This document shows, in pieces, positions 8,343 through 48,336 of a stretch of DNA of 57,020 nt (position 1 is the stretch's first letter; every line of letters starts with the position of its first letter). This stretch comes from a virus (Duplodnaviria > Caudoviricetes): IMG/VR virus record IMGVR_UViG_3300032018_000006, positions 1 to 57,020 of that record; one strand, given 5' to 3'. Below the pieces are notes generated by a model that was given only the letters and a program-made list of their open reading frames with translations, ran no database searches and was not told the origin of the DNA. Position numbers and translations under genes: made by a program.

Positions 8343-8365
8343 GACTGATAAAGTTTTGTTTTGAG

Positions 8366-8438
8366 AGCCTAATAACGGATTCGAACCGCTGACCAACTGA
8401 ATACAAATCAGCCGCTCTACCAACTGAGCTAATCAGGC
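8366..8438 (-). tRNA. tRNA-Thr(UGU), CCA not encoded
   Basis: Acceptor GCCTGAT/ATTAGGC; D arm GCTC-AGTTGGTA-GAGC; anticodon loop TT-TGT-AT; T arm with GGTTCGAATCC. Confidence 0.88.
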
Positions 8439-28112: not shown

Positions 28113-28757
28113 TTAAAATAATTGTAACTGATTTGATTTATTTTCGGCAGGAATTGCCGTAGGAGGTATTGGATCTGGAGTATCCTTGTATTTTTTGTTT
28201 TTGATGATCAGTTCAGCAAATTTTCCGCTGATTTTGAATTTCTCAGAAATTTCCCGATAGGTTGATCCAGCGAGCCTCATTTGTTTGATCTCAAAAATAT
28301 CTTCCGGAGAGAGTCTTCTTTTTCTCAATCCGTTCTTGATTGCAGCAGCTTTATGTTTTTGCGTGATTTTATTCAATCCATGTTTGAACGCATGGATCTG
28401 GTTTTCGGAGTTATCATTCCATTCCAATTCCCATTCGTAATTGATGGATTTATCTCCTGTTTTATGATTTGCCTGTGGTTTGTTCTCAGGATTTGGGATA
28501 AAGGCAATGGCAACCAGTCTGTGAACTGGAAGAGTCTTTTTAATGCCATCCTTGGATAAGTAAACTTGACAATAACCTTTCGTACTATATCCAATTTTTA
28601 AAATTTTCCCGGATTCAGACTTTGTAGAATTTCTGAATTTTATGATTCTTGGTAAAGATTTTACTCTTCCAAAATTGCTTACTTGATAAAGACCTTCAAA
28701 ACCTTCAATATCCTTCCAAATTTCGTTCTGGTAATTTTTATTTTCGGTTAATTGCAT
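28113..28757 (-). CDS. NUMOD4-HNH homing endonuclease-like protein
   Basis: EIWKDIEGFEGLYQVSNFGRVKS and VHRLVAIAFIPNP. Confidence 0.9.
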   Translation of the reverse strand: MQLTENKNYQNEIWKDIEGFEGLYQVSNFGRVKSLPRIIKFRNSTKSESGKILKIGYSTKGYCQVYLSKDGIKKTLPVHRLVAIAFIPNPENKPQANHKTGDKSINYEWELEWNDNSENQIHAFKHGLNKITQKHKAAAIKNGLRKRRLSPEDIFEIKQMRLAGSTYREISEKFKISGKFAELIIKNKKYKDTPDPIPPTAIPAENKSNQLQLF

Positions 28758-28908: not shown

Positions 28909-30204
28909 TTATGCAATACGTAATTGGAAAATTTTTACTTTTTTTTCTTCAGGCTCTTTTCCCTTCTCCTTTTCGATCAATAAATCAAGCACTTTCCGAT
29001 TAACCCGGTCATAAATTGAATAGTCAATTTCAATGTAAATATCAGCCATTTTATATTCATGATTGACATGGCCTAAACAAAAATCAACGTCGGCCTTGTC
29101 AACTTCAGCTTTATTCCGTGCCAGGCTCGCCCAGCTATGACGTGCCCAATTTGTTGTCACTTTTTGAAGCCCGAAATCTTCAGAAATGATCTTCATGCCT
29201 TTGTTTACGGATTTCATCAGGTTATAAGAATTGCAGTACCTGGCTCTTAAATCAGAAAGGAATCCATGGGAGCTGTACTTATCAATCAATCGCTGAAGTT
29301 CTGGCTCAATCCTAATTGATAGCAGGAAATTGTGAATATTGTCATCAGTATTGGTTTTGCTGCGTTCATAATTTACCCGGCCAGCTACCGGATCAGCCAA
29401 TTGATAAAGGTCGTTGATGTTTATTCCCATCAGGTAGAATTGCATCAGCCATACATCGCGACCAATGTTTTCACGTTCAGTTTTAAACACACTATCCCTG
29501 ATCTTTTTAATCTCTTCAATGCCAATATTTTTCCGCTTTCGCTTGTATTTCGGGACTTTCACCTTTAAGAATGGATTATGTGGGATTCTGATCAGATCAA
29601 TGTCATCATTGTTATACTCCAATTTGCATTTATTGAAGAGCGACCGGATAGCTTCAAGGTAATTACCTACCGCTCCTGGTTCCAGTGGCTTTTTATTTGG
29701 ACCGGCCTCGTAAAGTTTTTTGACGTACAGATTTAAATTTGTACTGGTTATTTCCTTAATGTCAATTGCTCCTTTCCCAAAATACCAGCAGAGCGATGAA
29801 ATCGCATTCTCATACCAGGAAGCTGTTTTTGCTTTTTTCGTCTTTAAAATTACCGATTTGCTGAATGCAACAAAATCAATTGTCTCATACTCTGGATCAG
29901 AACCTTCTATAAGGTAGTCTTTAACCTGTTTGCAAGTCATTTTTGAAATCCTACCTGATCCATGTTTTAATAAAAGTCTTCTGTAGTTTTGAATTATGTC
30001 GCCGATATCACAATTCACGGTATCAAAGCCCGGCCAATCTTCAGAAACTTCTCCTGAATTTTCCATGCAGCCAGGATGGATATAAAATTGGGTAGATATA
30101 TATTGACTTTCCCGATTGTGGTACAATCTGATTTTAATGTTTGTTGTACCGTCATTTTTAATGTGATTTTCCTGAGGAAATACGATTGCTTTAAATGTTG
30201 CCAT
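28909..30204 (-). CDS. int: Tyrosine integrase
   Basis: YERSKT, WARHSWA, LGH and Y catalytic region; next to attP; start taken as ATG 30204. Confidence 0.92.
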   Translation of the reverse strand: MATFKAIVFPQENHIKNDGTTNIKIRLYHNRESQYISTQFYIHPGCMENSGEVSEDWPGFDTVNCDIGDIIQNYRRLLLKHGSGRISKMTCKQVKDYLIEGSDPEYETIDFVAFSKSVILKTKKAKTASWYENAISSLCWYFGKGAIDIKEITSTNLNLYVKKLYEAGPNKKPLEPGAVGNYLEAIRSLFNKCKLEYNNDDIDLIRIPHNPFLKVKVPKYKRKRKNIGIEEIKKIRDSVFKTERENIGRDVWLMQFYLMGININDLYQLADPVAGRVNYERSKTNTDDNIHNFLLSIRIEPELQRLIDKYSSHGFLSDLRARYCNSYNLMKSVNKGMKIISEDFGLQKVTTNWARHSWASLARNKAEVDKADVDFCLGHVNHEYKMADIYIEIDYSIYDRVNRKVLDLLIEKEKGKEPEEKKVKIFQLRIA

Positions 30205-30267
30205 AAATTTTAGTTTTAATGGCTCTGCAATCAATTGAAAAAGCGTTAAAATTATGTCGAGTGTAAA

Positions 30268-36149: not shown

Positions 36150-36512
36150 ATGGAAAGAGAAGATATTGAAAATATTACAGCATTGATCGGAATTTGCATA
36201 ATCGACACGCTTTCGCGCCTCGACCTGATTACTGAAAATCTCAGCCAATCGAAAGCCCATGAAATTTATGGGAAAAAGAACATAGTAAAGTGGAGACAAT
36301 TAGGCTGGATTGTGGCATACGAAAGCGGTAATAAGACCTACGCAACAGTTTACTACAGGCGCTCAGAGTGCGAGAAAGCTATGCTGATGACCGAAGCAAG
36401 CGATAAACCCCGAAAGGGATTAAGGATAAATCAATTAATCGATTCACAAATCAAATCACATCACAATTATGAAAACAGTAAAAATCACAAAGCTATCCCT
36501 GCTAAACTTTAA
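36150..36512 (+). CDS. Excisionase-like winged-helix protein
   Basis: LSQSKAHEIYG...KWRQLGWI...VYYRRSE pattern; upstream motif shared with attP. Confidence 0.5.
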   Translation: MEREDIENITALIGICIIDTLSRLDLITENLSQSKAHEIYGKKNIVKWRQLGWIVAYESGNKTYATVYYRRSECEKAMLMTEASDKPRKGLRINQLIDSQIKSHHNYENSKNHKAIPAKL

Positions 36513-38412
36513 AGGGATCAAGAATTTCGAAATTGAGTTTAACGACTCAACCCGCATTTACGGAAGCAACAGAGCCGGAAAGACAACTCTGGTGGATGCT
36601 TTTACCTGGCTCCTTTTTGGAAAGGATTCAACCGACCGCAAAGATTTTAGCATCAAAACGCTCGATTCTGAAAACAGGGTAATTGAAAAGCTTGATCATG
36701 AAGTCACAGGTGTATTCGAAGTAAACAACGAAACTATTACCCTTCGCCGGGTTCTTCGCGAAAAATGGGTAACCCGCAGAGGTTCTGAAACGCCGGAAAT
36801 GCAAGGACATGAAACACTGTTTTTCTGGAATGACGTACCTCTTCAGGCCGGAGAATACCAGGCTAAGGTTGATTCAATCATTTCTGAGCAAACATTCAAT
36901 ATGATTACCTCACCGCTTTATTTCAACTCCTTAAAATGGCAGGACAGGCGCAATATCCTCACTACGATTGCCGGAAATGTTTCAGATAGTGATATCGCTG
37001 GTACCAGAAAAGATTTTCAGGATCTGCTCGCAGTGATGGGAAGTAAGTCACTCGAAGAATACAAAAAGGAGCTGGCAGCCAAAAAGAAAAAGCTGAAGGA
37101 CGAATTAACACTCATTCCTGCCCGAATCGCTGAACTGGATCACAATACTCCGGAAGCTAAGGACTGGAAGATTATTCAGGACGAAATTGATATTCTGAAC
37201 AACCAGATTGAAGCAATTGACAGTCAGATTGCAGATTCATCCAAAGGGCATGAGGCTTACTATCAGGAAAAACAAAACAGGCTCCGGAAGATCAACGATC
37301 TGAAAACAAAGATTTCGGACATTGAATATAAGGGTCGCCAGGCTTTCAGCGCTCAGGTCAATGACAAACAGGCAGCTATTGAGAATGCAAAACGCCGGAT
37401 TAGCGATTTCAACTTCAGAAAATCAGATTCAGTAAAAGAACTGGAAACCCTCCAGACCAGCATCGAGATTTTTAAGGCTGAACAAAACAAGCTGCGTGAT
37501 GAATGGGGTAAAGTGAACGAGGAAGAAATGCCGGAAGTAAAAGCTGGTGATTGCACTTGCTATGCTTGTGGACAGGCTCTTCCGGAAGATCAACTTCAAT
37601 CAAAAAAATCTCATGCTCTCACAAAATTCAATGCCGATAAAGACAAGCGTTTGACCTCTATCAGGGCTGAAGGTTTGGCTATCAATCCACGCATTGAAAA
37701 ACTGGAAAAGCAGATTGAGGAAATTAAAGGTACTGACTACGATAAACTGATTTCTGATCAACAGGAAATCGTTCGTACTTGGGAAGCAAAAGAAGTTAAA
37801 AGCATTCAGGCTTTGCTTGCCGACAATACCGAATACCATCAGATAGTAAAAGACCTTAACGAACTCGAATCAACTCCTGAAGCAGAAATGGCTCCTGTTG
37901 ACAATACCAGCCTTAAACTGAAGAAATCGGGCTATGCTTCACGCATTGACGAATTGAAAAGACAGTTATCAGCAAAGGATCAAATCGAACAGGCAAAGAA
38001 CCGGAGAAATGAGCTTTCAGCACAGGAAAAAGAGTTTGCTACTCAATTGGCAGGGTTCGAAAAATCAGAATTCATCATTTCCGAATTTACCAAGGCTAAA
38101 GTTGACATCCTGGAATCACGGATCAACAACATGTTCTCAGGTGTCAGATTCCGGTTATTCGACACCCAAATTAATGGAGGACTGGTTGAATGTTGCGATG
38201 CGATTGTGAATGGCGTTCCGTGGCTCGATGTTAACAGCGCAGACAAGATCAATTCCGGCATCTCAATCATCAACGTTCTTTCTGCCCATTATGGTCAAAC
38301 GGCTCCTATCTGGTTGGACAATGCTGAGGGAGTTACAGATATCCTTAAAACAGATTCTCAACTAATCGAATTGTATGTTTCGGCTGATGATAAAACTTTA
38401 AGAATCGCATAA
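36469..38412 (+). CDS. Rad50/SbcC-like ATPase with coiled coil
   Basis: GSNRAGKT Walker A, CYAC hook, WLDNAE Walker B. Confidence 0.9.
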   Translation: MKTVKITKLSLLNFKGIKNFEIEFNDSTRIYGSNRAGKTTLVDAFTWLLFGKDSTDRKDFSIKTLDSENRVIEKLDHEVTGVFEVNNETITLRRVLREKWVTRRGSETPEMQGHETLFFWNDVPLQAGEYQAKVDSIISEQTFNMITSPLYFNSLKWQDRRNILTTIAGNVSDSDIAGTRKDFQDLLAVMGSKSLEEYKKELAAKKKKLKDELTLIPARIAELDHNTPEAKDWKIIQDEIDILNNQIEAIDSQIADSSKGHEAYYQEKQNRLRKINDLKTKISDIEYKGRQAFSAQVNDKQAAIENAKRRISDFNFRKSDSVKELETLQTSIEIFKAEQNKLRDEWGKVNEEEMPEVKAGDCTCYACGQALPEDQLQSKKSHALTKFNADKDKRLTSIRAEGLAINPRIEKLEKQIEEIKGTDYDKLISDQQEIVRTWEAKEVKSIQALLADNTEYHQIVKDLNELESTPEAEMAPVDNTSLKLKKSGYASRIDELKRQLSAKDQIEQAKNRRNELSAQEKEFATQLAGFEKSEFIISEFTKAKVDILESRINNMFSGVRFRLFDTQINGGLVECCDAIVNGVPWLDVNSADKINSGISIINVLSAHYGQTAPIWLDNAEGVTDILKTDSQLIELYVSADDKTLRIA

Positions 38413-38438: not shown

Positions 38439-39353
38439 ATGACACAGCAAAGTAACACACCGGCAACAATTGCTAGTATTCAGCAATTTAGTTTTTTCAA
38501 TCCTGAACAATTTGCCACGATGCAACGGGTAGCAACCATGTTTTGCAATAGCGAGTTGGTTCCAGATATGTACAGGGTAACAGCTGATAATCCAAAGGAA
38601 AAAGCAATCGCCAACTGCATCATAGCAATTGACATTGCAAACCGGATTGGTGCAAATATCCTGATGGTAATGCAGAATCTGGTTATCATTTACGGTCGTC
38701 CTTCATGGAGTTCAAAGTTTCTGATCGCTACTGTAAACACCTGTGGCCGATTTGATACACTGAAATACAAATTCAAAGAACTTGGAGAGCTGAAAGACTT
38801 CAAATACACCGAGTATGAAACAACTTGGGAAAAACAACCAGACGGTAAAAGCAAAAAAATATCAAAGGTTGTCAATAAGGTTCTTCCAGGTATTACAAAA
38901 AATATTGAATGCATTGCCTACACATCTGCAAAGGGTTCTGATGAAGTTCTTGAAAGTGCACCTATATCTGTTGAAATTGCAATTAACGAAGGATGGTACA
39001 CAAAAAAAGGTTCTAAATGGCAGAGCATACCAATTCAGATGCTGATGTATCGTGCAGCATCATTCTGGACTTCGGCCTATGCCCCAGAGCTTTCTATGGG
39101 AATGAAAACGGAAGATGAAGTTCGGGACATTGAAGATATACCCTACGAGGATGTAACTGAGTCAGCAAAAAAAGAACAGGCAGCTAAGGCCAATAAAAAG
39201 GAAATTTCAATCGATGATCCTGAAGGTGGAAAAGAAGCTACTGAACCGAAACTGGAAGAGCAACCTATCCAGCAACCTGCTGAAGAGAAAAAAGAGGAAG
39301 CTGCTCCAGAAGTTAAAGAAGATCCAAAACCAAAAGCTAATCCAGGATTCTGA
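38439..39353 (+). CDS. RecT/Bet-like single-strand annealing protein
   Basis: VMQNLVIIYGRPSW and KWQSIPIQMLMYRA; between ATPase and MBL nuclease. Confidence 0.75.
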   Translation: MTQQSNTPATIASIQQFSFFNPEQFATMQRVATMFCNSELVPDMYRVTADNPKEKAIANCIIAIDIANRIGANILMVMQNLVIIYGRPSWSSKFLIATVNTCGRFDTLKYKFKELGELKDFKYTEYETTWEKQPDGKSKKISKVVNKVLPGITKNIECIAYTSAKGSDEVLESAPISVEIAINEGWYTKKGSKWQSIPIQMLMYRAASFWTSAYAPELSMGMKTEDEVRDIEDIPYEDVTESAKKEQAAKANKKEISIDDPEGGKEATEPKLEEQPIQQPAEEKKEEAAPEVKEDPKPKANPGF

Positions 39354-40087
39354 TGATACTAAAGGTCCTTGGAAGTTCGAGTAAGGGTAACAGTTATATC
39401 CTTGAATCTGAAAGTCAGGTACTGGTTATTGAAGCCGGTATCAGACTTTCAGAAGTCAAAAAGGCAATTGGGTTTGATGTGAATAAGATCGTTGGATGTT
39501 TGATCAGCCACGAACACGGAGACCATGCAGCTTACATCAATGATTTCACGAAATCGGCTATCGATGTATTCTGCTCCAGGGGAACTGCTTCAAATTTCAA
39601 TGTAAGTCACCGGCTTCATAAGATTGCATCCGGAACAGCTATTCAAATAGGCGAATTTAAAGTACTTCCTTTTGACGTCGTTCACGATGCTGCTGAACCA
39701 TTTGGATTTTTGATCAATCATCCTGAGTCTGGAAACATCCTGTTTTTGACTGATACCTTTTACTCTGAATTTACTTTCCGGGACCTGAATAACATCATTA
39801 TTGAAGTGAACTATGACCTGGCTATTCTGGAAGCAAATATCAAATCAGGAAGAGTCAGCCCTTCTATTCGCAACAGGATTGTAACCTCTCACATGAGCCT
39901 GCAAACGGCAAAAGAACTGCTCTCTGCTAATGATCTGTCCAAGGTTAATAATATCGTTCTCATTCATCTGTCGGACGGAAACAGCGATACAATTAGCTTC
40001 AAAAAAGAGATTGAAGGATCAACAGGAAAGACAATTACTGTTGCTGACGGAGGATCTGAAATTTTACTCAACAAAACACCTTTCTAA
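39353..40087 (+). CDS. Metallo-beta-lactamase fold nuclease
   Basis: LGSSSKGN, SHEHGDH, HD and HLS motifs. Confidence 0.9.
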   Translation: MILKVLGSSSKGNSYILESESQVLVIEAGIRLSEVKKAIGFDVNKIVGCLISHEHGDHAAYINDFTKSAIDVFCSRGTASNFNVSHRLHKIASGTAIQIGEFKVLPFDVVHDAAEPFGFLINHPESGNILFLTDTFYSEFTFRDLNNIIIEVNYDLAILEANIKSGRVSPSIRNRIVTSHMSLQTAKELLSANDLSKVNNIVLIHLSDGNSDTISFKKEIEGSTGKTITVADGGSEILLNKTPF

Positions 40088-40804: not shown

Positions 40805-40888
40805 GGGGATGTAGTGTATTTGGCGCACTAGGGCAATGGTCTTTCGGATGACAGCCCCTCAGAATAGGTTCGATTCCTACCATCTCCA
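40805..40888 (+). ncRNA. tRNA-like RNA with non-canonical anticodon arm
   Basis: Acceptor GGGGATG/CATCTCC-A, D arm GTGT/GCAC, T arm TAGG-TTCGATT-CCTA; anticodon arm expanded around TTCG. Confidence 0.6.
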
Positions 40889-40903
40889 CAAAAATCTATT
40901 TAA

Positions 40904-41556: not shown

Positions 41557-41957
41557 ATTTGATCATTACACCACCGCAGGAGATTGTTGACGAACTGAAA
41601 TTAATCGATGATTTTCTGAACGTCACCATGAGCGAAGATGCCGAAGAAGCGGTTGCCCGTGGAAATGACCTGGCTGCATACATAGCCCGGACCGGAAAGC
41701 TTCTGGCTGATGCAAAGTACCACCTGAACGAAAAAAAGAAATCAGAAGTGTTTCAGGTACTCGAAAAAACGGCAAAACAAGCCGGAGCAACAGCAACGGC
41801 CATCAATGCGATAGTCAACAGCCTTTGCAAAGAGGAACAATATTTAGTTGATTGGTCTGATCGATGTAACCGTGCAGCAACGCACCAATTAGATTGGGTT
41901 CGCTCAATTATTTCAAAAGCGAAAACTGAGATGCAATATATAAATTTTCATAAATGA
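41553..41957 (+). CDS. Helical hypothetical protein
   Basis: ORF track; coupled to neighbours. Confidence 0.65.
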   Translation: MNLIITPPQEIVDELKLIDDFLNVTMSEDAEEAVARGNDLAAYIARTGKLLADAKYHLNEKKKSEVFQVLEKTAKQAGATATAINAIVNSLCKEEQYLVDWSDRCNRAATHQLDWVRSIISKAKTEMQYINFHK

Positions 41958-42496
41958 TGAATTCAAATACTGAAATCTGGAGAGATGTTGAAGGCTACGA
42001 AGGCTTTTATCAAGCAAGTAATTTTGGCAGAATACGCAGTTTGACCAGCCAAAACAGATACAAAAGGTATAGTAGAATTAAAATATTAAACCCTGCTTTG
42101 TCAAAGGACGGTTATCTTAGAGTAGTATTATGTGTTGACCGAAAAATGAAATCATTAAATGTACATAGACTTGTTTTATCTGCATTTAGTATGAGTAATG
42201 ACAATCTTCAGGTTAATCATATCGATGGTAATAAATCAAATAATAGTCTATCAAATTTAGAATGGTGTACGCAGTCTGAAAATATGCTTCACGCCTATAA
42301 ATTAGGTTTAGAAAAACCTTGCGACAACGGTTTAAAGAAAAATGTTTCTTTAGTTAAAGATGGAACATCTGTTGGTAATTACAAATCAATTAGAGAAATG
42401 TGCCGCGTACATCTTTTGGACAGAAGAGCTGTACAGAGAGTTATTGATGGCACTTACTTAAGTCATAAAGGATTTACTTTTAAAATAAATCCATGA
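41954..42496 (+). CDS. NUMOD4-HNH endonuclease
   Basis: EIWRDVEGYEGFYQASNFGRIRS and VNHIDGNKSNN..NLEW. Confidence 0.92.
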   Translation: MMNSNTEIWRDVEGYEGFYQASNFGRIRSLTSQNRYKRYSRIKILNPALSKDGYLRVVLCVDRKMKSLNVHRLVLSAFSMSNDNLQVNHIDGNKSNNSLSNLEWCTQSENMLHAYKLGLEKPCDNGLKKNVSLVKDGTSVGNYKSIREMCRVHLLDRRAVQRVIDGTYLSHKGFTFKINP

Positions 42497-42846
42497 CTCA
42501 TATTGACATTAAGCCATTGTCTGTAAACGAGGCTTGGAAAGGTAAACGATTTAAAACCGATAGTTACAAAGTGTATGAAAATTCTGTTTTGTGGTTGTTA
42601 CCAAAAATTACAATTCCAGAACCTCCGTTTGTAATTCATTTCAAATTTGGATTTAGTTCAACTCTTTCAGATTGGGATAATCCAGTAAAGCCATTTCAGG
42701 ACATTTTAAGCAAGAAATATAAGTTCAACGATAAGTTAATCCGTAGGGCAATTGTTGAAACAGAAATAGTTGAAAAAGGCAAAGAATACATTGAATTTGA
42801 AATAAGCAAGTATGCGATTGAAACCGTTAAAGAATACCTGAAATGA
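42493..42846 (+). CDS. RusA-like Holliday junction resolvase
   Basis: PLSVN, DWDNPVKPFQD and NDKLI motifs. Confidence 0.8.
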   Translation: MTHIDIKPLSVNEAWKGKRFKTDSYKVYENSVLWLLPKITIPEPPFVIHFKFGFSSTLSDWDNPVKPFQDILSKKYKFNDKLIRRAIVETEIVEKGKEYIEFEISKYAIETVKEYLK

Positions 42847-42855
42847 ATATCGAAC

Positions 42856-43044
42856 TTGGTCGCGGATGCTGCAATAGACAGCGAAAGATTTGAGAACCTA
42901 AAACTATTTATTGATGTGTTTTCCGAAATGCACATGAAAATAGATGACATTGCTTACAGATGGAAAGATACTCATTTTGAGTCAGTCAAACCGTTTGTAA
43001 AAGCCTGTAATGATCAACTCGACGAAATGGGTATCAAAGAGTGA
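42856..43044 (+). CDS. Small hypothetical protein
   Basis: ORF track; start uncertain. Confidence 0.35.
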   Translation: MVADAAIDSERFENLKLFIDVFSEMHMKIDDIAYRWKDTHFESVKPFVKACNDQLDEMGIKE

Positions 43045-43121
43045 TTTATTATTGCCTATAACGGTTTTGCATACCAGCAGGGCAGGATTACGAGCTACTC
43101 ACTATCAATTTACACTAAATT

Positions 43122-43775
43122 ATGAACGAGAAACAAAATATCGAACACGCACCGCTACCTGACTTGACTGGTATGCAGTGTTATAACCAGCCTTTCGTCA
43201 GTCTTTTCAACGAAGATTGTCTTAAACTGATTGATTCGTGGCCTGTCGCTGATTGTGTTATTACCGATCCACCGTACCCGAACAATGCCGGACATTTTAT
43301 TGATGGAATAAAAGATGCTGTCTATTTTATGCAAAACTATAAATGCAAACACTGGTTTATTTTTTGGGATGAAATGACAAAACCGCCAATTGATTTACCA
43401 TTGGTTGCTATTCATATTTGGCATAGAAGTAATACAAATAGACCTGATAATTATGAGCCGATTTATGAATTTAACGAAAACGGAATAAAGAGAGCGAGTA
43501 GGGTAATACCTGCACCAGTTATTTATCCAGGACTTACTGGCTGTATTGAAGCAACTGGACACCCTACACAAAAGCCAGTTAAATTGATACGCAAATTAAT
43601 AACATACAACAAAATTACTGGCTTAGTTGCTGACCCCTTTTTTGGAAGCGGAACGGTAGCAGAAGCCTGTTTGAAAGAAAAAATCAACTTTATCGGAAGC
43701 GAAAAAGATTCAAAACATTATCAAGATGCAGTAAATCGCCTTGAACGTATGAGAATGTCGCCAACGCTGTTTTAA
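43122..43775 (+). CDS. DNA N6A/N4C methyltransferase
   Basis: TDPPY, HPTQKP and DPFFGSGT motifs. Confidence 0.92.
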   Translation: MNEKQNIEHAPLPDLTGMQCYNQPFVSLFNEDCLKLIDSWPVADCVITDPPYPNNAGHFIDGIKDAVYFMQNYKCKHWFIFWDEMTKPPIDLPLVAIHIWHRSNTNRPDNYEPIYEFNENGIKRASRVIPAPVIYPGLTGCIEATGHPTQKPVKLIRKLITYNKITGLVADPFFGSGTVAEACLKEKINFIGSEKDSKHYQDAVNRLERMRMSPTLF

Positions 43776-43952
43776 GGTTGGTTATAACGCATGAATGCTT
43801 GACGCAGGGACGGTTTAACAGCGATGTCCATTCCGGTCAGAGCAGCCCAAACAGGTACGGAAAGCCACCGCAAATCAGAGCTACCGGACTTGCCGCAAGC
43901 ATAAGTTATTACCAGGGCTTTATTAACGAATCAAATAACTAATAACGATTAA

Positions 43953-44249
43953 ATGACACGAAACGAAATTGAACAAAAAAGAAAAGAGAACTTCGATAAA
44001 ATCGAAACTCTAAAACGTGAAAATATAGAACTTGCAAAGCAAGCAATTCTATTATCTGACGAAAAACAGCAATTTACTGAAGTCGTTGAAACTCATCCAC
44101 GAGAAAAATGGCAACGAAAAGACAATTATCTGGACGGAAAATTAGTCGGCAGAATCCACTGGAAAGAAGAATTTAAAGACGAATCAGATGGCTCATCTAT
44201 TATTATCAATCGTCAACGAGTTGTCAGAGTCGATGGCGAGTGGATTTAG
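43953..44249 (+). CDS. Hypothetical cassette protein
   Basis: ORF fills the second cassette. Confidence 0.65.
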   Translation: MTRNEIEQKRKENFDKIETLKRENIELAKQAILLSDEKQQFTEVVETHPREKWQRKDNYLDGKLVGRIHWKEEFKDESDGSSIIINRQRVVRVDGEWI

Positions 44250-44315
44250 CCTTGGTTATAACGGTTCTCGGCTTGGCGAAGGTGGGGAAATAAACCCAAC
44301 AAACTAATTACGAGC

Positions 44316-44951
44316 ATGAACGATCAATTACAACTTTTCCCTGTCAACGAAGCGACACAACCCGGCTTTTTGGTAGCCGAAGTTATAAGCTGTTTTTGTC
44401 CAAAAAGCACACAAATGAAAAGATATAAAATTGTTTACGCCGATCCTCCGTGGAATTACAATGGTCAAATTTATGAGCGTGGTGGAACTGAAAACCACTA
44501 CGAAACAATGACAACAAACGACATTGCAAATATGAGGATTGATGATATTACTGATTGGGATTGTGTCTGTTTTATGTGGGCAACATTCCCAAAATTAAAA
44601 GATGCTTTGCATGTAATGAAATGCTGGGGATTTGATTATAAAACAGTTGCTTTTACTTGGGTTAAAATGAACAAGAAAGCAGACACACCATTTTTCGGAA
44701 TGGGAAAATGGACGAGAAGTAACGCTGAAATTTGTTTATTGGGCGTTAAAAATGAAATTTCCAGACAAAAAGCGAATGTGTCTCAGGTTATTATGAGTCC
44801 AATTTTGGAACACAGTAAAAAACCAGATGAAACCAGAGATTTAATAATTCAACTTATGGGCGATTTGCCACGTGTTGAATTATTTGCTCGTCAGTCAACA
44901 ATTGGATGGGATGTCTGGGGAAATGAAGTACAATGCGATGTCGCCATTTAA
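44316..44951 (+). CDS. MT-A70 family adenine methyltransferase
   Basis: YADPPW, HSKKP, ELFAR and WGNE motifs. Confidence 0.93.
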   Translation: MNDQLQLFPVNEATQPGFLVAEVISCFCPKSTQMKRYKIVYADPPWNYNGQIYERGGTENHYETMTTNDIANMRIDDITDWDCVCFMWATFPKLKDALHVMKCWGFDYKTVAFTWVKMNKKADTPFFGMGKWTRSNAEICLLGVKNEISRQKANVSQVIMSPILEHSKKPDETRDLIIQLMGDLPRVELFARQSTIGWDVWGNEVQCDVAI

Positions 44952-45091
44952 AATAGCTTATAACGTAAAGCGGATACACGCAGTTGCGGAGTGAACCGAT
45001 GAACACGATTGAAAAGTAAATGTAACAATTAAAAGTTTTTTTTAGGGAGGGTTTTTGTTTTCTTAATTTGTTAAATTTTAATTACTTTGTT

Positions 45092-46012
45092 ATGACGAAT
45101 ATAATCAAAATGGCTAACTTAAATTCTGATTTTTGCATAACGATTGATTTTGATAAAAAATCTGAAAACCCCTCAAGAGTTTTTCAGACAATGACTGAAT
45201 TAATCCATGCTTTTCAAAAATTCGATTCTAATTTAATTAAGGGAATTGATACACAATTAGAACCAGTAATTTTACTGGAAGATGTAGAAATTGGCTCGTT
45301 AAAAACTTGGTTGTCGTCAATAATAAGAGGCATACCGGACGAAGCAATAAAAGATGGAGATTGGAAAAAAATTATAGGTCATTATTTATTAAGGTCAAAA
45401 TACATTGTACTTAACAGAATTGAAAATAGGGTCGATATTACTGATGCAAAAGTCATAGAGGATATTCAATATGAACTTGTCGAAGAGGCTAGGAAAACTG
45501 ACATAAAAATGATGCCTTATTATGAACCATTACCGATACCAAAATTAATTCGAAGTATTGAGGAAATAAATAATGCTTTGTCATATTTAAACACTAACGA
45601 TAAGGCATATTTTGAGACTAAAGATAATGATAAAGCGACCTTTAATCTTTCCTTAGATTTTAGTCCTGAAAAAATTGAAGACTTATTAACTAAAGAAAGA
45701 ATTTCTAATGAATCAACGCTTATTATGAAAATTAAAAAGCCTGATTATTTAGGTAGCTCGATGTGGGAATTTAGACATAATAATAAAACAATACCTGCTA
45801 AAATTTTACATGAAAGCTGGTTAATACAATTTCAACAAAGAAAGATTGATATTCGACCAGGTGATTCAATAAAAGCAAAGATAAATACAATCGTAAAATA
45901 CGGTCACGATAATAATGTCATTGGAACTTCTTATGAAATATTAGAAATAATAAATGTCTTGCCATTAAATACTCCATCACAGAGTCTATTGTTTGACGGG
46001 GATAATGACTAA
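45092..46012 (+). CDS. AT-rich hypothetical protein, candidate defence gene
   Basis: Long ORF, lower GC than flanks, paired with a MTase-nuclease fusion; start uncertain. Confidence 0.7.
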   Translation: MTNIIKMANLNSDFCITIDFDKKSENPSRVFQTMTELIHAFQKFDSNLIKGIDTQLEPVILLEDVEIGSLKTWLSSIIRGIPDEAIKDGDWKKIIGHYLLRSKYIVLNRIENRVDITDAKVIEDIQYELVEEARKTDIKMMPYYEPLPIPKLIRSIEEINNALSYLNTNDKAYFETKDNDKATFNLSLDFSPEKIEDLLTKERISNESTLIMKIKKPDYLGSSMWEFRHNNKTIPAKILHESWLIQFQQRKIDIRPGDSIKAKINTIVKYGHDNNVIGTSYEILEIINVLPLNTPSQSLLFDGDND

Positions 46013-46042
46013 AAAGCAAATTCAATAAACAATATACCTCAG

Positions 46043-47488
46043 ATGAATCAATTATATTTTGGCGACAATCTTTTTATTTTAAAGAATCTATATTCTCAAC
46101 ATCCAAATGGATTTATTGATTTAATATACATTGATCCACCATTTAACTCAAAAAGAAATTATAACGTACTTTTTGAAAGTATTGATTTGTCAGATTCAAC
46201 CGCTCAAAAAGAGGCATTTGCAGATACGTGGAGCAATATATCATATATTGATACACTAAATGAACTTGCTAATTTAAACCTTCATTTATACAGTTTTTTA
46301 ACAAATCTCGAAAATATAGGTATCTCAAAAAGTGCCATATCCTACCTGACAACAATGTCAATTAGAATATGGTATATGCACAAGTTATTAAAAGAAACGG
46401 GGTCTTTTTATTTGCATTGTGATCCTACAATGAGCCATTATCTTAAAATTGTCTGTGACATAATATTCAATGAAAAGAATTTTAAAAATGAAGTTATTTG
46501 GCATTACAGAAGATGGACTGGCGATGCAAAGTCGTTTATGAAGATGCACGATGTTATACTGTTCTATGCCAAAAATAAGAATGACATAAAGTTCAATGTG
46601 CTTTATACTGATTACACTGAAAAGTCATTAAAAAGAAAACAAAATTATCATACAAGAATAAAAGGGGATGATGTGTACGTCACATCAATTGATGAAAAAG
46701 GTGTAAAGGAAAATGATGTTTGGCAAATACAGTTATTAAATTCACAGTCTCACGAACGACAAGGTTATCCGACACAAAAGCCCGAATCATTATTGGAACG
46801 AATAATTTTAGCATCGTCCAATAGCGATGACCTAATAGCCGACTTTTTTTGTGGCTGTGGCACGTCAATAGCGGTGGCAGAAAAGTTAAAAAGAAAATGG
46901 ATAGGTGTCGATATATCACATTTAGCAGTTAGATTAATAGCCAATAGAATTGGAAAAGAAAATATAAATAAAACTTTTGAAATTCATGGATTACCAAAAG
47001 ATTTAGATTCCGCAAAAGAACTCGCTAATAATGTCAAAGGCGGACGTTTGGAGTTCGAAGAATGGGTTGTTGAGTTTCTTCTACATGGCATCCTTAATGA
47101 AAAAAGAAACGAGATGGGTTTTGATGGTTATAGAACTTTTGATGCAAATGGAAAAAGATGTTTTGCTATGATAGAAGTAAAGAGCGGAAATGTGACTATG
47201 GCGCAATTTAATCATTTTCTAAAGACAGTAAATGACAAAAAAGGCGATTTGGGTATATTCGTTAGCTTTGAAGATCAAATCACCAAGAACATGAGAATAG
47301 CAGCAAAAAGAGAGGGGAATTTTGCAATTAACGACAATGTTTTTTCAGATAAAATACAAATATCTACAATTGAAGATTTGTTAGATAATAGAGTTCCCAA
47401 AATTCCTGAATCCACAAAAGAAACATTTAAGAAAGCAATCAAAAAAATCAATGAAGATGCAACACAGCCGACCTTAGATATGTTTTGA
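46043..47488 (+). CDS. DNA methyltransferase fused to an Mrr-like PD-(D/E)XK endonuclease
   Basis: IDPPF, YPTQKP and DFFCGCGT; C-terminal FEEW...GFDG...IEVKSG. Confidence 0.88.
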   Translation: MNQLYFGDNLFILKNLYSQHPNGFIDLIYIDPPFNSKRNYNVLFESIDLSDSTAQKEAFADTWSNISYIDTLNELANLNLHLYSFLTNLENIGISKSAISYLTTMSIRIWYMHKLLKETGSFYLHCDPTMSHYLKIVCDIIFNEKNFKNEVIWHYRRWTGDAKSFMKMHDVILFYAKNKNDIKFNVLYTDYTEKSLKRKQNYHTRIKGDDVYVTSIDEKGVKENDVWQIQLLNSQSHERQGYPTQKPESLLERIILASSNSDDLIADFFCGCGTSIAVAEKLKRKWIGVDISHLAVRLIANRIGKENINKTFEIHGLPKDLDSAKELANNVKGGRLEFEEWVVEFLLHGILNEKRNEMGFDGYRTFDANGKRCFAMIEVKSGNVTMAQFNHFLKTVNDKKGDLGIFVSFEDQITKNMRIAAKREGNFAINDNVFSDKIQISTIEDLLDNRVPKIPESTKETFKKAIKKINEDATQPTLDMF

Positions 47489-47833
47489 TTGTTTTTAATT
47501 CTTAACAATTTTGAAAAAATTGAAAGGTGCGTGGGCAAAAAAACTTTTAATTGTGGTGAGTACCGAAACAATATCAATGAAACATTGCTGCCGCAATTGC
47601 GGGTATACGTTGTTATGCGCTTTTTGCCGTGTTTTTTGATTTGTCGCCCCGTAGGGGCTTAAAACACGGCGTATTGCGCATAACTTGTAAATATACGCAG
47701 TTCACAAAATTGAACCATGAATAATCAGAGAAATAAAAGGCGTGAAGTTTGTGATCGACAATGATTAGCCATGCAAAAGCACAACTTTTGCCTGAAATTA
47801 TGCACAAAAATTGCCTCAAATTATATATCAACA

Positions 47834-47862
47834 AAAAGCCCGGACATATCATCCGGGCTTTT
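47834..47862. terminator. Bidirectional terminator between convergent early and late arms
   Basis: AAAAGCCCGGA / TCCGGGCTTTT. Confidence 0.8.
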
Positions 47863-47890
47863 CACTTAACCTAACTAACCTAAACCAAAC

Positions 47891-48280
47891 CTAAACCTGC
47901 GTAAGTCCATCACGTGCAAATCGGTGAACTTGCGCCATATCTTTTTGCATCAATCGTTTATTAACACTTCGGACCTCACTTGCATATAAGCACGTTCGAT
48001 AATTCAAGCAGTAGAATGAATTAAAATCAGGCCGTTTCAGTACAACATCTGCAGTGCAAACAATCGGTACACTTGAAACGAGGTCATAAGCTCCGATTTG
48101 CTGAACTACCAAAGGCAATGCAACGAAATCAAAGGTTACCATTTCATAGGCTGGCATAATCTGACCCACATCAGAAACAAGTGTTACCTGGTGAGTATTT
48201 GCAGCCTGAGCCTGATTCCCGGGTGGCATGGTTAGCAACATCCCGAACGAAAAACAAATGAGCAAAATAAATGCTTTCAT
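47891..48280 (-). CDS. Hypothetical protein with signal peptide
   Basis: Hydrophobic N-terminus with AQA site; preceded by the late motif. Confidence 0.55.
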   Translation of the reverse strand: MKAFILLICFSFGMLLTMPPGNQAQAANTHQVTLVSDVGQIMPAYEMVTFDFVALPLVVQQIGAYDLVSSVPIVCTADVVLKRPDFNSFYCLNYRTCLYASEVRSVNKRLMQKDMAQVHRFARDGLTQV

Positions 48281-48336
48281 AAATGATGAATTTTTGGTTA
48301 ATACTATGAGACTTTAAAATATAAGTTCGTTTTAAT

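What the first reader, a model, noticed from the sequence alone, without database searches (positions are those of the whole stretch)
43059..47684. Integron-like cassette array in a phage with no integron integrase
Seen: genes are separated by imperfect palindromes running TAAC...GTTA, with inner arms such as TGCATACCAG/CTGGTATGCA, ATGCTTG/CAAGCAT and TCGGCT/AGCCGA. Each cassette start is complementary to its own end: 43180-43194 vs 43774-43788 (14/15), 43905-43919 vs 44248-44262 (13/15), 44382-44396 vs 44950-44964 (14/15), and an empty cassette 47612-47635 vs 47661-47684 (20/24). Known: such start/end complementarity marks integron cassettes that excise as circles at G/TT. Inference: a hairpin-based gene-capture platform using a recombinase supplied in trans.
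Basis: partly seen in the sequence, partly recalled or inferred. Interest (0 to 1): 0.78.

Follow-up and report, generated by a model that had tools for sequence, protein, structure and literature searches.

The report
Hairpin-bounded gene cassettes in a phage
This phage carries a row of DNA-methylase genes, each boxed in by matching inverted repeats and separated by conserved hairpins, and the same boxed genes turn up in other phages with the joints exactly at those repeats, so this is a real gene-swapping array that resembles an integron but does not behave like a textbook one.

Summary
Three genes (two DNA methyltransferases and a 98-aa ORF) each start GTTA... and end ...TAAC, with 13-14 of 15 complementary bases. 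About 130-nt hairpin elements ('S') lie between them.

It is one example of an architecture common in Flavobacteriia phages, including Cellulophaga phage phi19:3 and Polaribacter phage P12002L. The P12002L methylase region was published as a phage 'CALIN' (PMC9892861).

Cassette 1 occurs at 89-95% identity in four other flank contexts, with homology ending at the GTT and AAC boxes.

It is not a textbook integron:
- The exchanged unit is not 'ORF plus its attC'.
- Wobble pairs (471 G:T against 128 A:C) show that the sense strand folds.
- One G:T sits at position 11 of the cassette repeat in 52 of 56 cassettes.
- In 18 of 31 S hairpins the loop holds a start codon and leader read in frame into the cargo.
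- No IntI was found in the phage or in 306 sampled host-side genomes, though no positive control rang.

Best reading: a phage-specific, integron-like socket system. The enzyme is unknown.

The parts
42856..43044 (+). 62-aa ORF upstream of the array ('cassette 0'). It is followed by the first ...CTATAAC box at 43056-43062.
   Evidence: ORF list. No Pfam, PHROG or PADLOC family. The end flank ATTGCCTATAACGGTTTTG resembles ATTGCCTACAACGTTTTG in L058. Its membership in the array is weak.
43056..43186 (+). S1 hairpin element. Order: R'' box CTATAAC, 5-nt spacer, L'' 43068-43077, loop with ATG at 43122, L' 43168-43177, spacer GT, R' box.
   Evidence: The covariance model built from 8 S elements of other phages hits 43048-43197 on the + strand at 48.8 bits, E 1.7e-8. 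The leader ORF from 43122 reads in frame into the methylase.
43180..43788 (+). Cassette 1. R' is 43180-43194 and R'' is 43774-43788 (14/15, G:T at position 11). The cargo is an N6/N4 DNA methyltransferase, ORF 43122 or 43173 to 43775, with no start codon of its own downstream of R'.
   Evidence: The same unit is found at 89-95% identity with unlike flanks in run X6 (43178-43789) and in L274, L275 and L276 (43172-43789 / 43172-43788 / 43172-43675, the last cut by the contig end).
43782..43911 (+). S2 hairpin element. L'' is 43795-43801 and L' is 43896-43902. A 26-codon mini-ORF (43824-43904) stops just before R'.
   Evidence: (I6). The covariance model does not find it at E <= 1. Fold z = -0.79. 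This is the weakest of the three.
43905..44262 (+). Cassette 2. R' is 43905-43919 and R'' is 44248-44262 (13/15, G:T at position 11). The cargo is a 98-aa ORF (43953-44249) of no known family.
   Evidence: A 77%-identical ORF in L168 sits in the same frame of repeats, but the repeats differ at 6-7 of 15 positions and still pair.
44256..44388 (+). S3 hairpin element. L'' is 44268-44273 and L' is 44375-44380. The loop holds an ATG at 44316 in frame with the methylase.
   Evidence: Model hit 44248-44399 on the + strand at 27.3 bits, E 0.0016. Its first 27 nt are 96% identical to an S element in L140, and short pieces of it occur in contigs of runs X2 and X6. Fold z = +0.65.
44382..44964 (+). Cassette 3. 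R' is 44382-44396 and R'' is 44950-44964 (14/15, G:T at position 11). The cargo is an MT-A70-family DNA methyltransferase whose conserved body starts at ATG 44415 and ends at 44951.
   Evidence: The homologue in L058 (63% aa) has the same kind of repeats. The homologue in L061 is a lone cassette directly behind a terminase-like gene (family named from reading its sequence, not tested).
44958..47619 (+). S4, a hairpin element whose loop has been blown up to 2.6 kb. Order: R'' box 44958-44964, L'' 44970-44989, loop, L' 47591-47610, then R' box 47612.
Evidence: L'' pairs with 47591-47610 at 16 Watson-Crick plus 2 G:T of 20. This is the best partner in the 3 kb downstream.
45025..47554 (+). Nested element bounded by a perfect 18-nt inverted repeat (45025-45042 / 47537-47554). 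GC is 27-33%. It carries an ORF of about 300 aa of no known family (45110-46012) and a 481-aa methyltransferase with a weak C-terminal restriction-endonuclease-like match (46043-47488).
   Evidence: I3, 100% complementary; GC drop. A contig of run X4 joins 45042 to 46043 and so lacks the first ORF (side 39).
47612..47684 (+). 'Empty' R-type hairpin. It has 24-nt arms (20/24) and a 25-nt loop with no gene.
   Evidence: (z = -6.05 on the + strand, -6.93 on the - strand).

Best explanation
The stretch is a phage-specific, integron-like 'socket' array. Two classes of inverted repeat alternate on the gene-sense strand. R'/R'' repeats (GTTA..., ...TAAC, about 15 nt) enclose each cargo gene. L''/L' repeats close the S hairpin that lies between cargos.

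Shown:
- The architecture is a conserved family in Bacteroidota (mainly Flavobacteriia) phages.
- The S stem covaries.
- The pairs tolerate G:T but not A:C, so the sense strand is the one that folds.
- About half of the S loops hold a start codon and a short leader that is read in frame through L' and R' into the cargo. Cassette 1 has no start of its own downstream of R' in the window (reading frame). In the window, L274 and L275 a loop start reads in frame into it. L276 has the same upstream element but was not put through that test.
- The boxed genes recur in different flanks, with the joints at the GTT and AAC boxes.

Inferred: the feet of the hairpins are the crossover points at which cargos, here anti-restriction-type DNA methylases, are gained, lost and swapped between co-infecting phages. 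The S hairpin doubles as a standard expression adaptor at the RNA level.

The enzyme is not identified. I favour a structure-directed, site-specific step supplied in trans, for example a host Xer-like or phage tyrosine recombinase. It is not an integron integrase encoded in the window.
For: Window anatomy.

Family membership:
- A covariance model built from 8 S elements of other phages finds window S1 (E 1.7e-8) and S3 (E 0.0016).
- It also finds sites flanking the methylases of Polaribacter phage P12002L and sites in L058, L168, L140, L176, L274, L275 and phi19:3, almost all on the gene-sense strand.
- It gives 0 hits in 78 unrelated MT-A70-bearing phage loci (757 kb) and 4 hits in 57 RusA-related loci (871 kb).

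Covariation: 10 of 25 predicted pairs show compensatory changes.

Strand:
- In 506 stems, G:T 366 plus T:G 105, against A:C 48 plus C:A 80.
- Of 56 unique cassette repeats with 11/15 or more matches, 54 are mismatched at position 11, and 52 G:T mismatches were tallied over all positions.
- All three window cassettes have G:T at position 11.

Start/end pairing is general: 56 of 360 nearest-following pairs reach 11/15 or more, against 23 of 698 later pairs.

Mobility:
- Cassette 1 alone matches a contig of run X6 (43178-43789), L274 (43172-43789, 93.5%), L275 (43172-43788, 90.1%) and L276 (43172-43675, 88.9%, cut by the contig end). S elements or flanks differ on one or both sides.
- L157 against L196: an insertion of 1181-1187 bp by the BLAST gaps, starting after ...CTACAAC and ending ...GTACAAC.
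- L176 against L241: a block replaced between ...CCTACAAC and ...CATAAC.
- L058 against L061: the same methylase occurs in an array and as a lone cassette, with homology ending at GTTA and CATAAC.

Leader: 18 of 31 model-defined S elements have a loop ATG opening an ORF that runs through R'.

Published support: one predicted P12002L attC site recombined with attI1 under IntI1 at G|TT (PMC9892861, section 3.4).
Against: - No recombinase has been tied to the sites.
- No circle and no clean empty site was seen.
- Two kinds of exchanged unit occur (R'..R'', and S + R'..R''). In addition, L058 and L176 share the S element and both repeats but hold different genes. No single crossover point explains all three cases.
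- S2 is not recognised by the model, and S2 and S3 fold no better than shuffled sequence.
- Conserved G:T, read as G.U, together with start codons in the loops, fits a purely RNA-level role. The precise joints could then come from selection for whole modules plus microhomology.
- The top-strand signal could in part be a mutational bias.
- Loops of 0.5 to 2.6 kb are unlike any known recombination hairpin.
Confidence: 0.45

Rival explanations
1. RNA-level modules only. S hairpins are translation-start adaptors or processing signals in the early polycistronic mRNA. R'/R'' stems insulate or process each cistron. No dedicated recombinase exists. Modules are swapped by illegitimate or microhomology recombination between the short conserved cores, perhaps helped by the phage's RecT / SbcC-like / metallo-beta-lactamase-fold recombination genes. 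This would parallel the promoter-stem-loop cassettes (PeSLs) of T4-type phages.
For: - Sense-strand G:T excess, and an almost invariant G:T at position 11 of the cassette repeats. In the S-stem alignment some pairs are mostly G.U as well.
- A start codon sits in an A-rich loop in 18 of 31 S elements.
- The orientation follows the array even where the cargo gene is reversed (L058 5136-5441 on the - strand).
- The window encodes an SbcC-like ATPase, a RecT-like protein and a metallo-beta-lactamase-fold protein just upstream, and phi19:3 has the same trio.
- The PeSL precedent: abstract of PMC2839356.
Against: - The joints are exact to about 2 nt on both sides in several independent contexts, although the shared cores are only 4-10 nt.
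- The R'/R'' repeats travel with the cargo into unrelated flanks.
- R' often lies inside the translated region, where ribosomes would melt a long-range RNA stem.
- The elements flank only accessory genes. They do not occur between the tightly packed genes at 40.5-42.8 kb.
- No RNA data exist.
Confidence: 0.3
2. Canonical integron relic (CALIN). The hairpins are true attC sites of cassettes captured from bacterial integrons and are moved by a host IntI acting on the bottom strand at G|TT.
For: - The layout is AAC...GTT boxes, variable inner arms and a length of 130 nt. Each cassette start is complementary to its own end.
- P12002L, which has the same architecture, was called a CALIN. One of its sites was recombined by IntI1 (PMC9892861).
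Against: - The exchanged unit never includes the downstream hairpin.
- Wobble pairs favour the top strand.
- The stems are continuous, without the extrahelical bases recalled for attC.
- The 21-nt motif of this family is exact in 106 viral stretches but in only 23 stretches of 185,579 species' genomes.
- TIGR02249 was over its cut-off in 0 of 5 motif-holding genomes, and matched at E <= 1e-40 or over the cut-off in 0 of 301 genomes of the family of one of them. No positive control rang.
- The other tested P12002L site failed in the published assay.
Confidence: 0.08
3. Non-autonomous transposable cassettes. Each R'..R'' unit, and the 45025-47554 element with its perfect 18-nt repeat, is a passenger-carrying miniature element moved by a transposase in trans. 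The transposase could be of the DDE type (mobile-insertion-cassette-like) or a single-strand HUH type (IS200/IS605- or REP/RAYT-like, which are strand-specific and insert after a short target).
For: - Terminal inverted repeats travel with the cargo.
- The lone insertion in L061.
- Units follow ...YAAC and themselves end in ...YAAC.
- The pairing is strand-specific.
- The perfect 18-nt repeat around an AT-rich module.
Against: - No target-site duplication is visible at any of the three cassettes.
- No transposase or HUH family was seen in the window ORFs that were scanned, but not all ORFs were scanned.
- The repeat sequences differ from cassette to cassette and keep only their pairing, which does not suit a sequence-reading transposase.
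Confidence: 0.1

Closest known systems
Clusters of attC sites lacking an integrase (CALINs) in virulent phages, notably Polaribacter phage P12002L (Qi et al. 2023, PMC9892861; I read the abstract, section 3.4 and passages; the supplements were not seen)
   Same: - It is a phage of a Flavobacteriia host.
- DNA methylase genes are separated by AAC...GTT hairpins.
- No integron integrase is present.
- My model of the S family hits the P12002L intergenic sites next to gp35, gp36, gp37, gp53 and gp54. Reading the sequence shows the same start/end repeats.
   Different: - The paper treats the sites as integron attC sites found by IntegronFinder and HattCI.
- In the parts I read it does not describe the cassette-enclosing repeats with the fixed G:T, the sense-strand bias, the leader-encoding loops or the breadth of the family.
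- Whether its two tested sites are the ones my model hits is an inference, because the coordinates are in supplements I could not open.
Integron cassettes and attC sites (recalled knowledge)
   Same: - Conserved AAC/GTT boxes and inner arms conserved in pairing only.
- Each cassette start is complementary to its own end.
- The sites form arrays of promoterless or startless genes.
- The recombinase need not be adjacent.
   Different: - The unit exchanged here excludes the downstream hairpin.
- The top strand folds, not the bottom strand.
- The internal loop is lopsided (5-6 nt against 1-3 nt), with continuous stems.
- The repeat at the cassette ends is about 15 nt, not 7.
- The loops carry start codons or whole genes.
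- There is no IntI, attI or Pc.
PeSL regulatory cassettes of T4-type phages (PMC2839356, abstract and outline read; PMC4122927, search listing only)
   Same: Small conserved regulatory stem-loop modules flank accessory genes in hyperplastic regions. Insertions, deletions and replacements between relatives occur at them. Phage genomes exchange modules without a dedicated integrase.
   Different: PeSLs are a sigma-70 promoter plus a terminator stem-loop, and they recombine by their sequence homology. Here no sigma-70-like promoter or terminator signal exceeds chance. The sequences vary while the pairing is kept, and the cargo is enclosed by its own repeats.
pdif (Xer) modules of Acinetobacter plasmids, and elements that exploit host XerCD (recalled knowledge, not tested)
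   Same: Gene modules are bounded by inversely oriented sites, arranged in arrays, and moved by a host recombinase in trans.
   Different: pdif sites are conserved 28-bp double-stranded sites. Here only 3-8 bases are conserved, and the two kinds of boundary have different spacers (5-6 nt against 1-3 nt), so they are not inverted copies of one duplex site.

Membership tests
Integron / attC cassette array | An integron integrase (IntI, with its extra domain) next to the array or in the host | tested here: not met
   PF00589 has no match in the 57-kb record. TIGR02249 was over its cut-off in 0 of 5 genomes that hold the family's motif. It matched at E <= 1e-40 or over the cut-off in 0 of 301 genomes of the family of one of them. 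No positive control rang, so this is weak evidence of absence. Window ORF 28909-30234 (- strand) has integrase-type N-terminal domains only.
Integron / attC cassette array | R''(..AAC) and R'(GTT..) boxes around imperfectly paired L''/L' arms, 57-141 nt long (range recalled) | tested here: met
   Three sites of 130-133 nt have AAC/GTT boxes and inner arms of 6-10 bp. In relatives the same elements reach more than 200 nt, and in S4 2.6 kb.
Integron / attC cassette array | The mobile unit is the gene plus its own downstream attC, with the crossover at G|TT of R' | tested here: not met
   Cassette 1 recurs without the downstream hairpin (X6, L274, L275). Other events exchange the upstream hairpin plus the gene, bounded by AAC| on both sides.
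Integron / attC cassette array | The bottom strand is the folded, recombined strand, marked by extrahelical bases (recalled) | tested here: not met
   G:T plus T:G 471 against A:C plus C:A 128 on the sense strand. The consensus stem is a continuous 19 bp without bulges.
CALIN as defined by IntegronFinder | Two or more hits of the attC covariance model within about 4 kb and no integrase (definition recalled) | not testable with these tools
   The attC model is not on hand. Rfam gave no match above its gathering scores in 42500-48500.
S-hairpin family of Flavobacteriia phages (defined here) | A match to the covariance model built from 8 S elements of other phages, on the gene-sense strand | tested here: met
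   Window 43048-43197 (E 1.7e-8) and 44248-44399 (E 0.0016) match. S2 does not match at E <= 1. The control gave 0 hits in 757 kb of unrelated phage loci.
S-hairpin family of Flavobacteriia phages (defined here) | Cassette repeat of about 15 nt with a G:T at position 11 | tested here: met
   3 of 3 window cassettes have it. Of 56 cassettes elsewhere, 54 are mismatched at position 11, and 52 G:T mismatches were tallied over all positions.
PeSL-type regulatory cassette | A strong sigma-70-type promoter followed by a terminator stem-loop | tested here: not met
   Promoter-like sites: 23 found against 23.3 expected, none in S1-S3. Terminator-like sites: 4 found against 3.1 expected, none in S1-S3. 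Bacteroidota promoters are not covered by that scan.
Miniature or passenger-carrying transposable element | Terminal inverted repeats plus a target-site duplication, and a matching transposase somewhere | tested here: inconclusive
   Repeats are present. No duplication is seen at the three cassettes. No transposase was found in the ORFs scanned. Hosts were not searched for one.

The most novel reading that the evidence does not exclude
Flavobacteriia phages share a cassette system of their own that needs no integron integrase. Standardised sense-strand 'sockets' alternate along the array. One is an S hairpin that presents a start codon and leader. The other is an R stem with an almost invariant G:T (G.U) at position 11 that encloses the cargo. 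Together they allow startless genes to be captured in frame, expressed and swapped. On this reading, the 'CALINs' that integron finders report in such phages are this system and not integron relics.
Probability: 0.45. Interest if true: 0.8.

Novelty: new variant of a known kind. Interest (0 to 1): 0.62.

Why it matters
If this holds, the accessory-gene regions of many marine Flavobacteriia phages are built from plug-in modules with defined joints, not from random mosaics.

- It would explain how anti-restriction methylases and small orphan genes spread between otherwise unrelated phages.
- It would mean that attC-like hits in phage genomes need re-reading.
- It would offer a natural, standardised 'adaptor plus socket' design for expressing arbitrary cargo in Bacteroidota, where translation starts do not rely on Shine-Dalgarno pairing (recalled).

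Two cultured systems carry the same architecture, Cellulophaga phage phi19:3 and Polaribacter phage P12002L, so the open question of whether this is a DNA recombination site, an RNA element or both can be tested directly.

Tried and rejected
- Rfam: 13 matches at E <= 10 in 42500-48500, all far below their gathering scores. None lies on S1-S3.

- BLAST of the stretch against named phages: only weak hits to single genes, and no close relative.

- RusA-based relatives: 57 loci were fetched, but outside RusA they share almost no genes with the window. They could not serve for a cassette-order comparison.

- Methylase 1 in viral contigs: one GC-rich, 51%-identical homologue without any repeats. 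It shows only that the repeats are not a property of the gene family.

- Metagenome scan with the exact first 22 nt of cassette 1: 0 matches.

- L058's full 180-kb record could not be searched for recombinases because it is not held.

- The phi19:3 tyrosine recombinase next to its array is not an IntI (only a weak XerD match) and is unlike the window's integrase-like ORF. That ORF has no solved relative by sequence.

- Sequencing runs: no RNA holder is listed, so nothing can be said about expression.

- Weak joints, which I do not count:
  - 43195 to 43770 in X6 (side 20). This would be an 'empty' cassette 1.
  - 42805 to 45147 in X2 and X3 (side 21).
  - 42696 to 45246 in X6 (side 22).
  The tool warns that joints with sides under 30 often come from repeats or other organisms.

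- A dif-like reading of 47675-47700 (arms 7 of 9 complementary, by eye) was not pursued.

- The loop motif GTGAGGTACGAGCAATG occurs in only 4 short S elements (L157, L214, L245, L254). It marks a subfamily, not the family.

- I considered RNase III-type processing sites (T7-like, recalled) and capsid-targeting leaders (T4-like, recalled). Nothing here tests either.

- Papers: searches for the peptide and DNA motif found 0 papers. A search on Cellulophaga or Flavobacterium phages with repeats and hairpins listed nothing relevant among the 15 shown of 860. So 'not described' rests on these two searches and on the parts of PMC9892861 that I read.

Full report
**What is there.**

The window is a complete 57,020-bp viral record. 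Downstream of a recombination and early-gene block the + strand carries a run of accessory genes. That block holds an SbcC-like ATPase (36469-38412), a RecT-like gene (38439-39353), a metallo-beta-lactamase-fold gene (39353-40087), an HNH endonuclease (41954-42496) and a RusA-like gene (42493-42846).

The accessory genes are:
- a 62-aa ORF;
- an N6/N4 DNA methyltransferase;
- a 98-aa ORF;
- an MT-A70 methyltransferase;
- an AT-rich pair, namely an ORF of about 300 aa and a 481-aa methyltransferase.

The three middle genes each begin GTTA... and end ...TAAC, with 14/15, 13/15 and 14/15 complementary bases. The 'empty cassette' at 47612-47684 has 20/24.

- Of 874 GTTA...TAAC pairs lying 200-1500 nt apart in the window, only these three reach 13/15.
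- Each start fits its own end best.
- Between the genes lie three elements of 131, 130 and 133 nt, of the form AAC - 5-6 nt - arm ... arm' - 1-2 nt - GTT.

Against this, whole-element folding energies are ordinary for two of the three (z = -2.96, -0.79, +0.65). Inverted matches of 13/15 as such are frequent in the window.

**It is one member of a large family.**

I call the gene-enclosing repeats R' (start) and R'' (end), the inner arms L'' and L', and the element between genes S. The same layout is plain in several places:
- viral loci L058, L168 and L140;
- Cellulophaga phage phi19:3, which also shares the ATPase / RecT / hydrolase / HNH block;
- Polaribacter phage P12002L, around three methylase genes.

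A 21-nt motif of this family, an R' box read in frame as VVGRSEQ, is exact in 106 viral stretches with wholly variable flanks. It is exact in only 23 stretches from one genome each of 185,579 species, mostly Bacteroidota metagenome bins. The system is therefore phage-associated.

**A covariance model confirms membership.**

I built the model from eight S elements, none from the window.
- It finds window S1 (48.8 bits, E 1.7e-8) and S3 (27.3 bits, E 0.0016). It does not find S2.
- It finds the intergenic sites beside P12002L gp35, gp36, gp37, gp53 and gp54.
- It finds many sites in L058, L168, L140, L176, L274, L275 and phi19:3, almost all on the gene-sense strand.
- It gives 0 hits in 78 unrelated phage loci that carry MT-A70 genes (757 kb).
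- It gives 4 hits in 57 RusA-related loci (871 kb).

**Structure is conserved, and on the sense strand.**

- In the eight-member alignment, RNAalifold predicts the AAC/GTT foot plus a continuous 19-bp stem. Ten of 25 pairs show compensatory changes, and some pairs are mostly G.U.
- In 506 unique stems, found with a search that treats all mismatches alike, G:T plus T:G number 471 and A:C plus C:A number 128. The set includes chance stems.
- For the cassette repeats, 56 of 360 'R' against nearest following R''' pairs reach 11/15 or more, compared with 23 of 698 pairs with later sites.
- Among the 56, position 11 is mismatched in 54, and 52 G:T mismatches (G in R', T in R'') were tallied over all positions.
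- All three window cassettes show G:T at position 11.
- The homologous 98-aa cassette in L168 (77% identical ORF) has repeats that differ at 6-7 of 15 positions and still pair.

The strand that carries the genes is therefore the one under selection for pairing. From recalled knowledge, this is the opposite of integron attC sites.

**The hairpin loops are used.**

In 18 of 31 model-defined S elements an ATG in the loop opens an ORF that runs through L' and R' into the cargo.

- Cassette 1 has no start codon of its own downstream of R'. In the window, L274 and L275 it is read from three different leaders, all in frame.
- The MT-A70 gene has its own start at 44415, and homologues align from that residue. 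The S3 leader is nevertheless in frame with it.
- Loops can also hold whole genes: about 500 nt in L157 and 2.6 kb in the window.

In the window, L'' 44970-44989 pairs with 47591-47610 (16 Watson-Crick plus 2 G:T of 20). This pairing spans an AT-rich two-gene element that has its own perfect 18-nt inverted repeat.

**Cassettes move, and the joints are at the boxes.**

- Cassette 1 alone, with unlike flanks, matches:
  - a 778-nt contig of run X6 over 43178-43789 (33 differences);
  - L274 over 43172-43789 (93.5%);
  - L275 over 43172-43788 (90.1%);
  - L276 up to its contig end.
- In L274 both neighbouring S elements differ from the window's. L274 and L275 share the upstream S but differ downstream.
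- L157 has an extra block of 1181-1187 bp (the BLAST gaps) relative to L196. It starts right after ...CTACAAC and ends ...GTACAAC.
- L176 and L241 differ by a block (S plus gene plus repeats) bounded by ...CCTACAAC and ...CATAAC.
- L058 and L061 hold the same methylase, once in an array and once alone behind a terminase-like gene (named from reading, not tested). Homology ends at GTTA and CATAAC.
- L058 and L176 share the S element and both repeats but hold different genes.

No single integron-type unit (gene plus downstream attC) explains these events.

**Recombinase.**

- No PF00589 match occurs in the record.
- ORF 28909-30234 on the minus strand has an Arm-DNA-binding domain and a SAM-like integrase domain. 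It may be a divergent Bacteroidota-type integrase, and it lies 13 kb from the array.
- The integron-integrase model TIGR02249 passes its cut-off in 0 of 5 genomes that hold the motif. There the matches skip model positions 180-238. I take those positions to hold the IntI-specific insertion (a recalled feature), so these look like Xer-type recombinases.
- TIGR02249 matches at E <= 1e-40 in 0 of 301 genomes of the family of one of those genomes. No control genome rang, so this is 'not found in those searched'.

**Comparison with what is known.**

Qi et al. 2023 (PMC9892861; I read the abstract, section 3.4 and passages):
- They report 17 CALINs in phages. One is in P12002L and carries two methylase genes.
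- They show that one of its two tested sites recombines with attI1 under IntI1 at G|TT. The other site failed.
- I could not open their supplements, so the identity of their sites with mine is an inference.

The T4-type PeSL cassettes (PMC2839356, abstract) are the closest functional parallel for module swapping at regulatory stem-loops. No sigma-70-type promoter or terminator signal exceeds chance here.

**Verdict.**

The finding is real and non-trivial, and it belongs to a published kind, attC-like cassette clusters in phages without IntI. It differs from that kind in several ways:
- the cassette-enclosing repeats with a fixed G:T;
- the sense-strand bias;
- the leader-bearing loops;
- the nested cargo;
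- the breadth of the family in Flavobacteriia phages.

These features are not in the parts of the literature I could read or search, and they argue for a phage-specific variant.

I put 0.45 on 'integron-like socket system with structure-directed exchange in trans, with S doubling as an expression adaptor'. I put 0.30 on 'RNA modules swapped without a dedicated enzyme', 0.10 on 'miniature transposable cassettes' and 0.08 on 'canonical integron relic'.

Noticed in passing
window 45025-45042 and 47537-47554: A perfect 18-nt inverted repeat bounds a 2.5-kb AT-rich module (27-33% GC). The module holds an ORF of about 300 aa of no known family and a 481-aa methyltransferase with a weak C-terminal restriction-endonuclease-like match. 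A soil-metagenome contig (run X4) has the methylase directly after the left repeat, without the first ORF.
   Followed up: partly
window 28909-30234, minus strand: This 441-aa ORF has Arm-DNA-bind_5 and Phage_int_SAM_5 domains, although the catalytic-domain family PF00589 did not match in the record. It may be a divergent Bacteroidota-type integrase, in which case the phage may be temperate.
   Followed up: partly
L058 3009, 3248, 5757; 106 viral stretches: The 21-nt motif GTTGTAGGGCRAAGCGAACAG is conserved to the base inside small, otherwise unrelated ORFs. Many of these are Cys-rich after the motif. It is read as VVG(R/Q)SEQ and contains the GCGAAGC mini-hairpin sequence. No paper holds the motif.
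   Followed up: partly
L157 755, L214 533, L245 minus strand (position 16438 on that strand), L254 6348: A subfamily of short S hairpins (about 70 nt) shares the loop GTGAGGTACGAGCAATG. Window S1 and S3 hold a related TTACGAGC in their loops.
   Followed up: no
window 47675-47700: Just after the empty hairpin the sequence reads as two 9-nt arms (7 of 9 complementary, by eye) around a 7-nt centre. This loosely resembles a Xer/dif-type core site (recalled form). It was not tested.
   Followed up: no
window 41954-42496 and 28113-28757 (minus strand): There are two NUMOD4-domain ORFs. The first also has an HNH_3 endonuclease domain and lies just upstream of the array. The second shows NUMOD4 only. 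phi19:3 also has an HNH gene beside its array.
   Followed up: no
window 40805-40889: ARAGORN calls an 85-nt tRNA-His with anticodon ATG among the early genes, and a tRNA-Thr at 8365-8438 on the minus strand.
   Followed up: no
L058 5066-5573: One cassette holds its gene on the opposite strand (5136-5441, minus). Its repeats keep the array's orientation, with G:T at position 11. So cargo can sit either way round in a socket.
   Followed up: no
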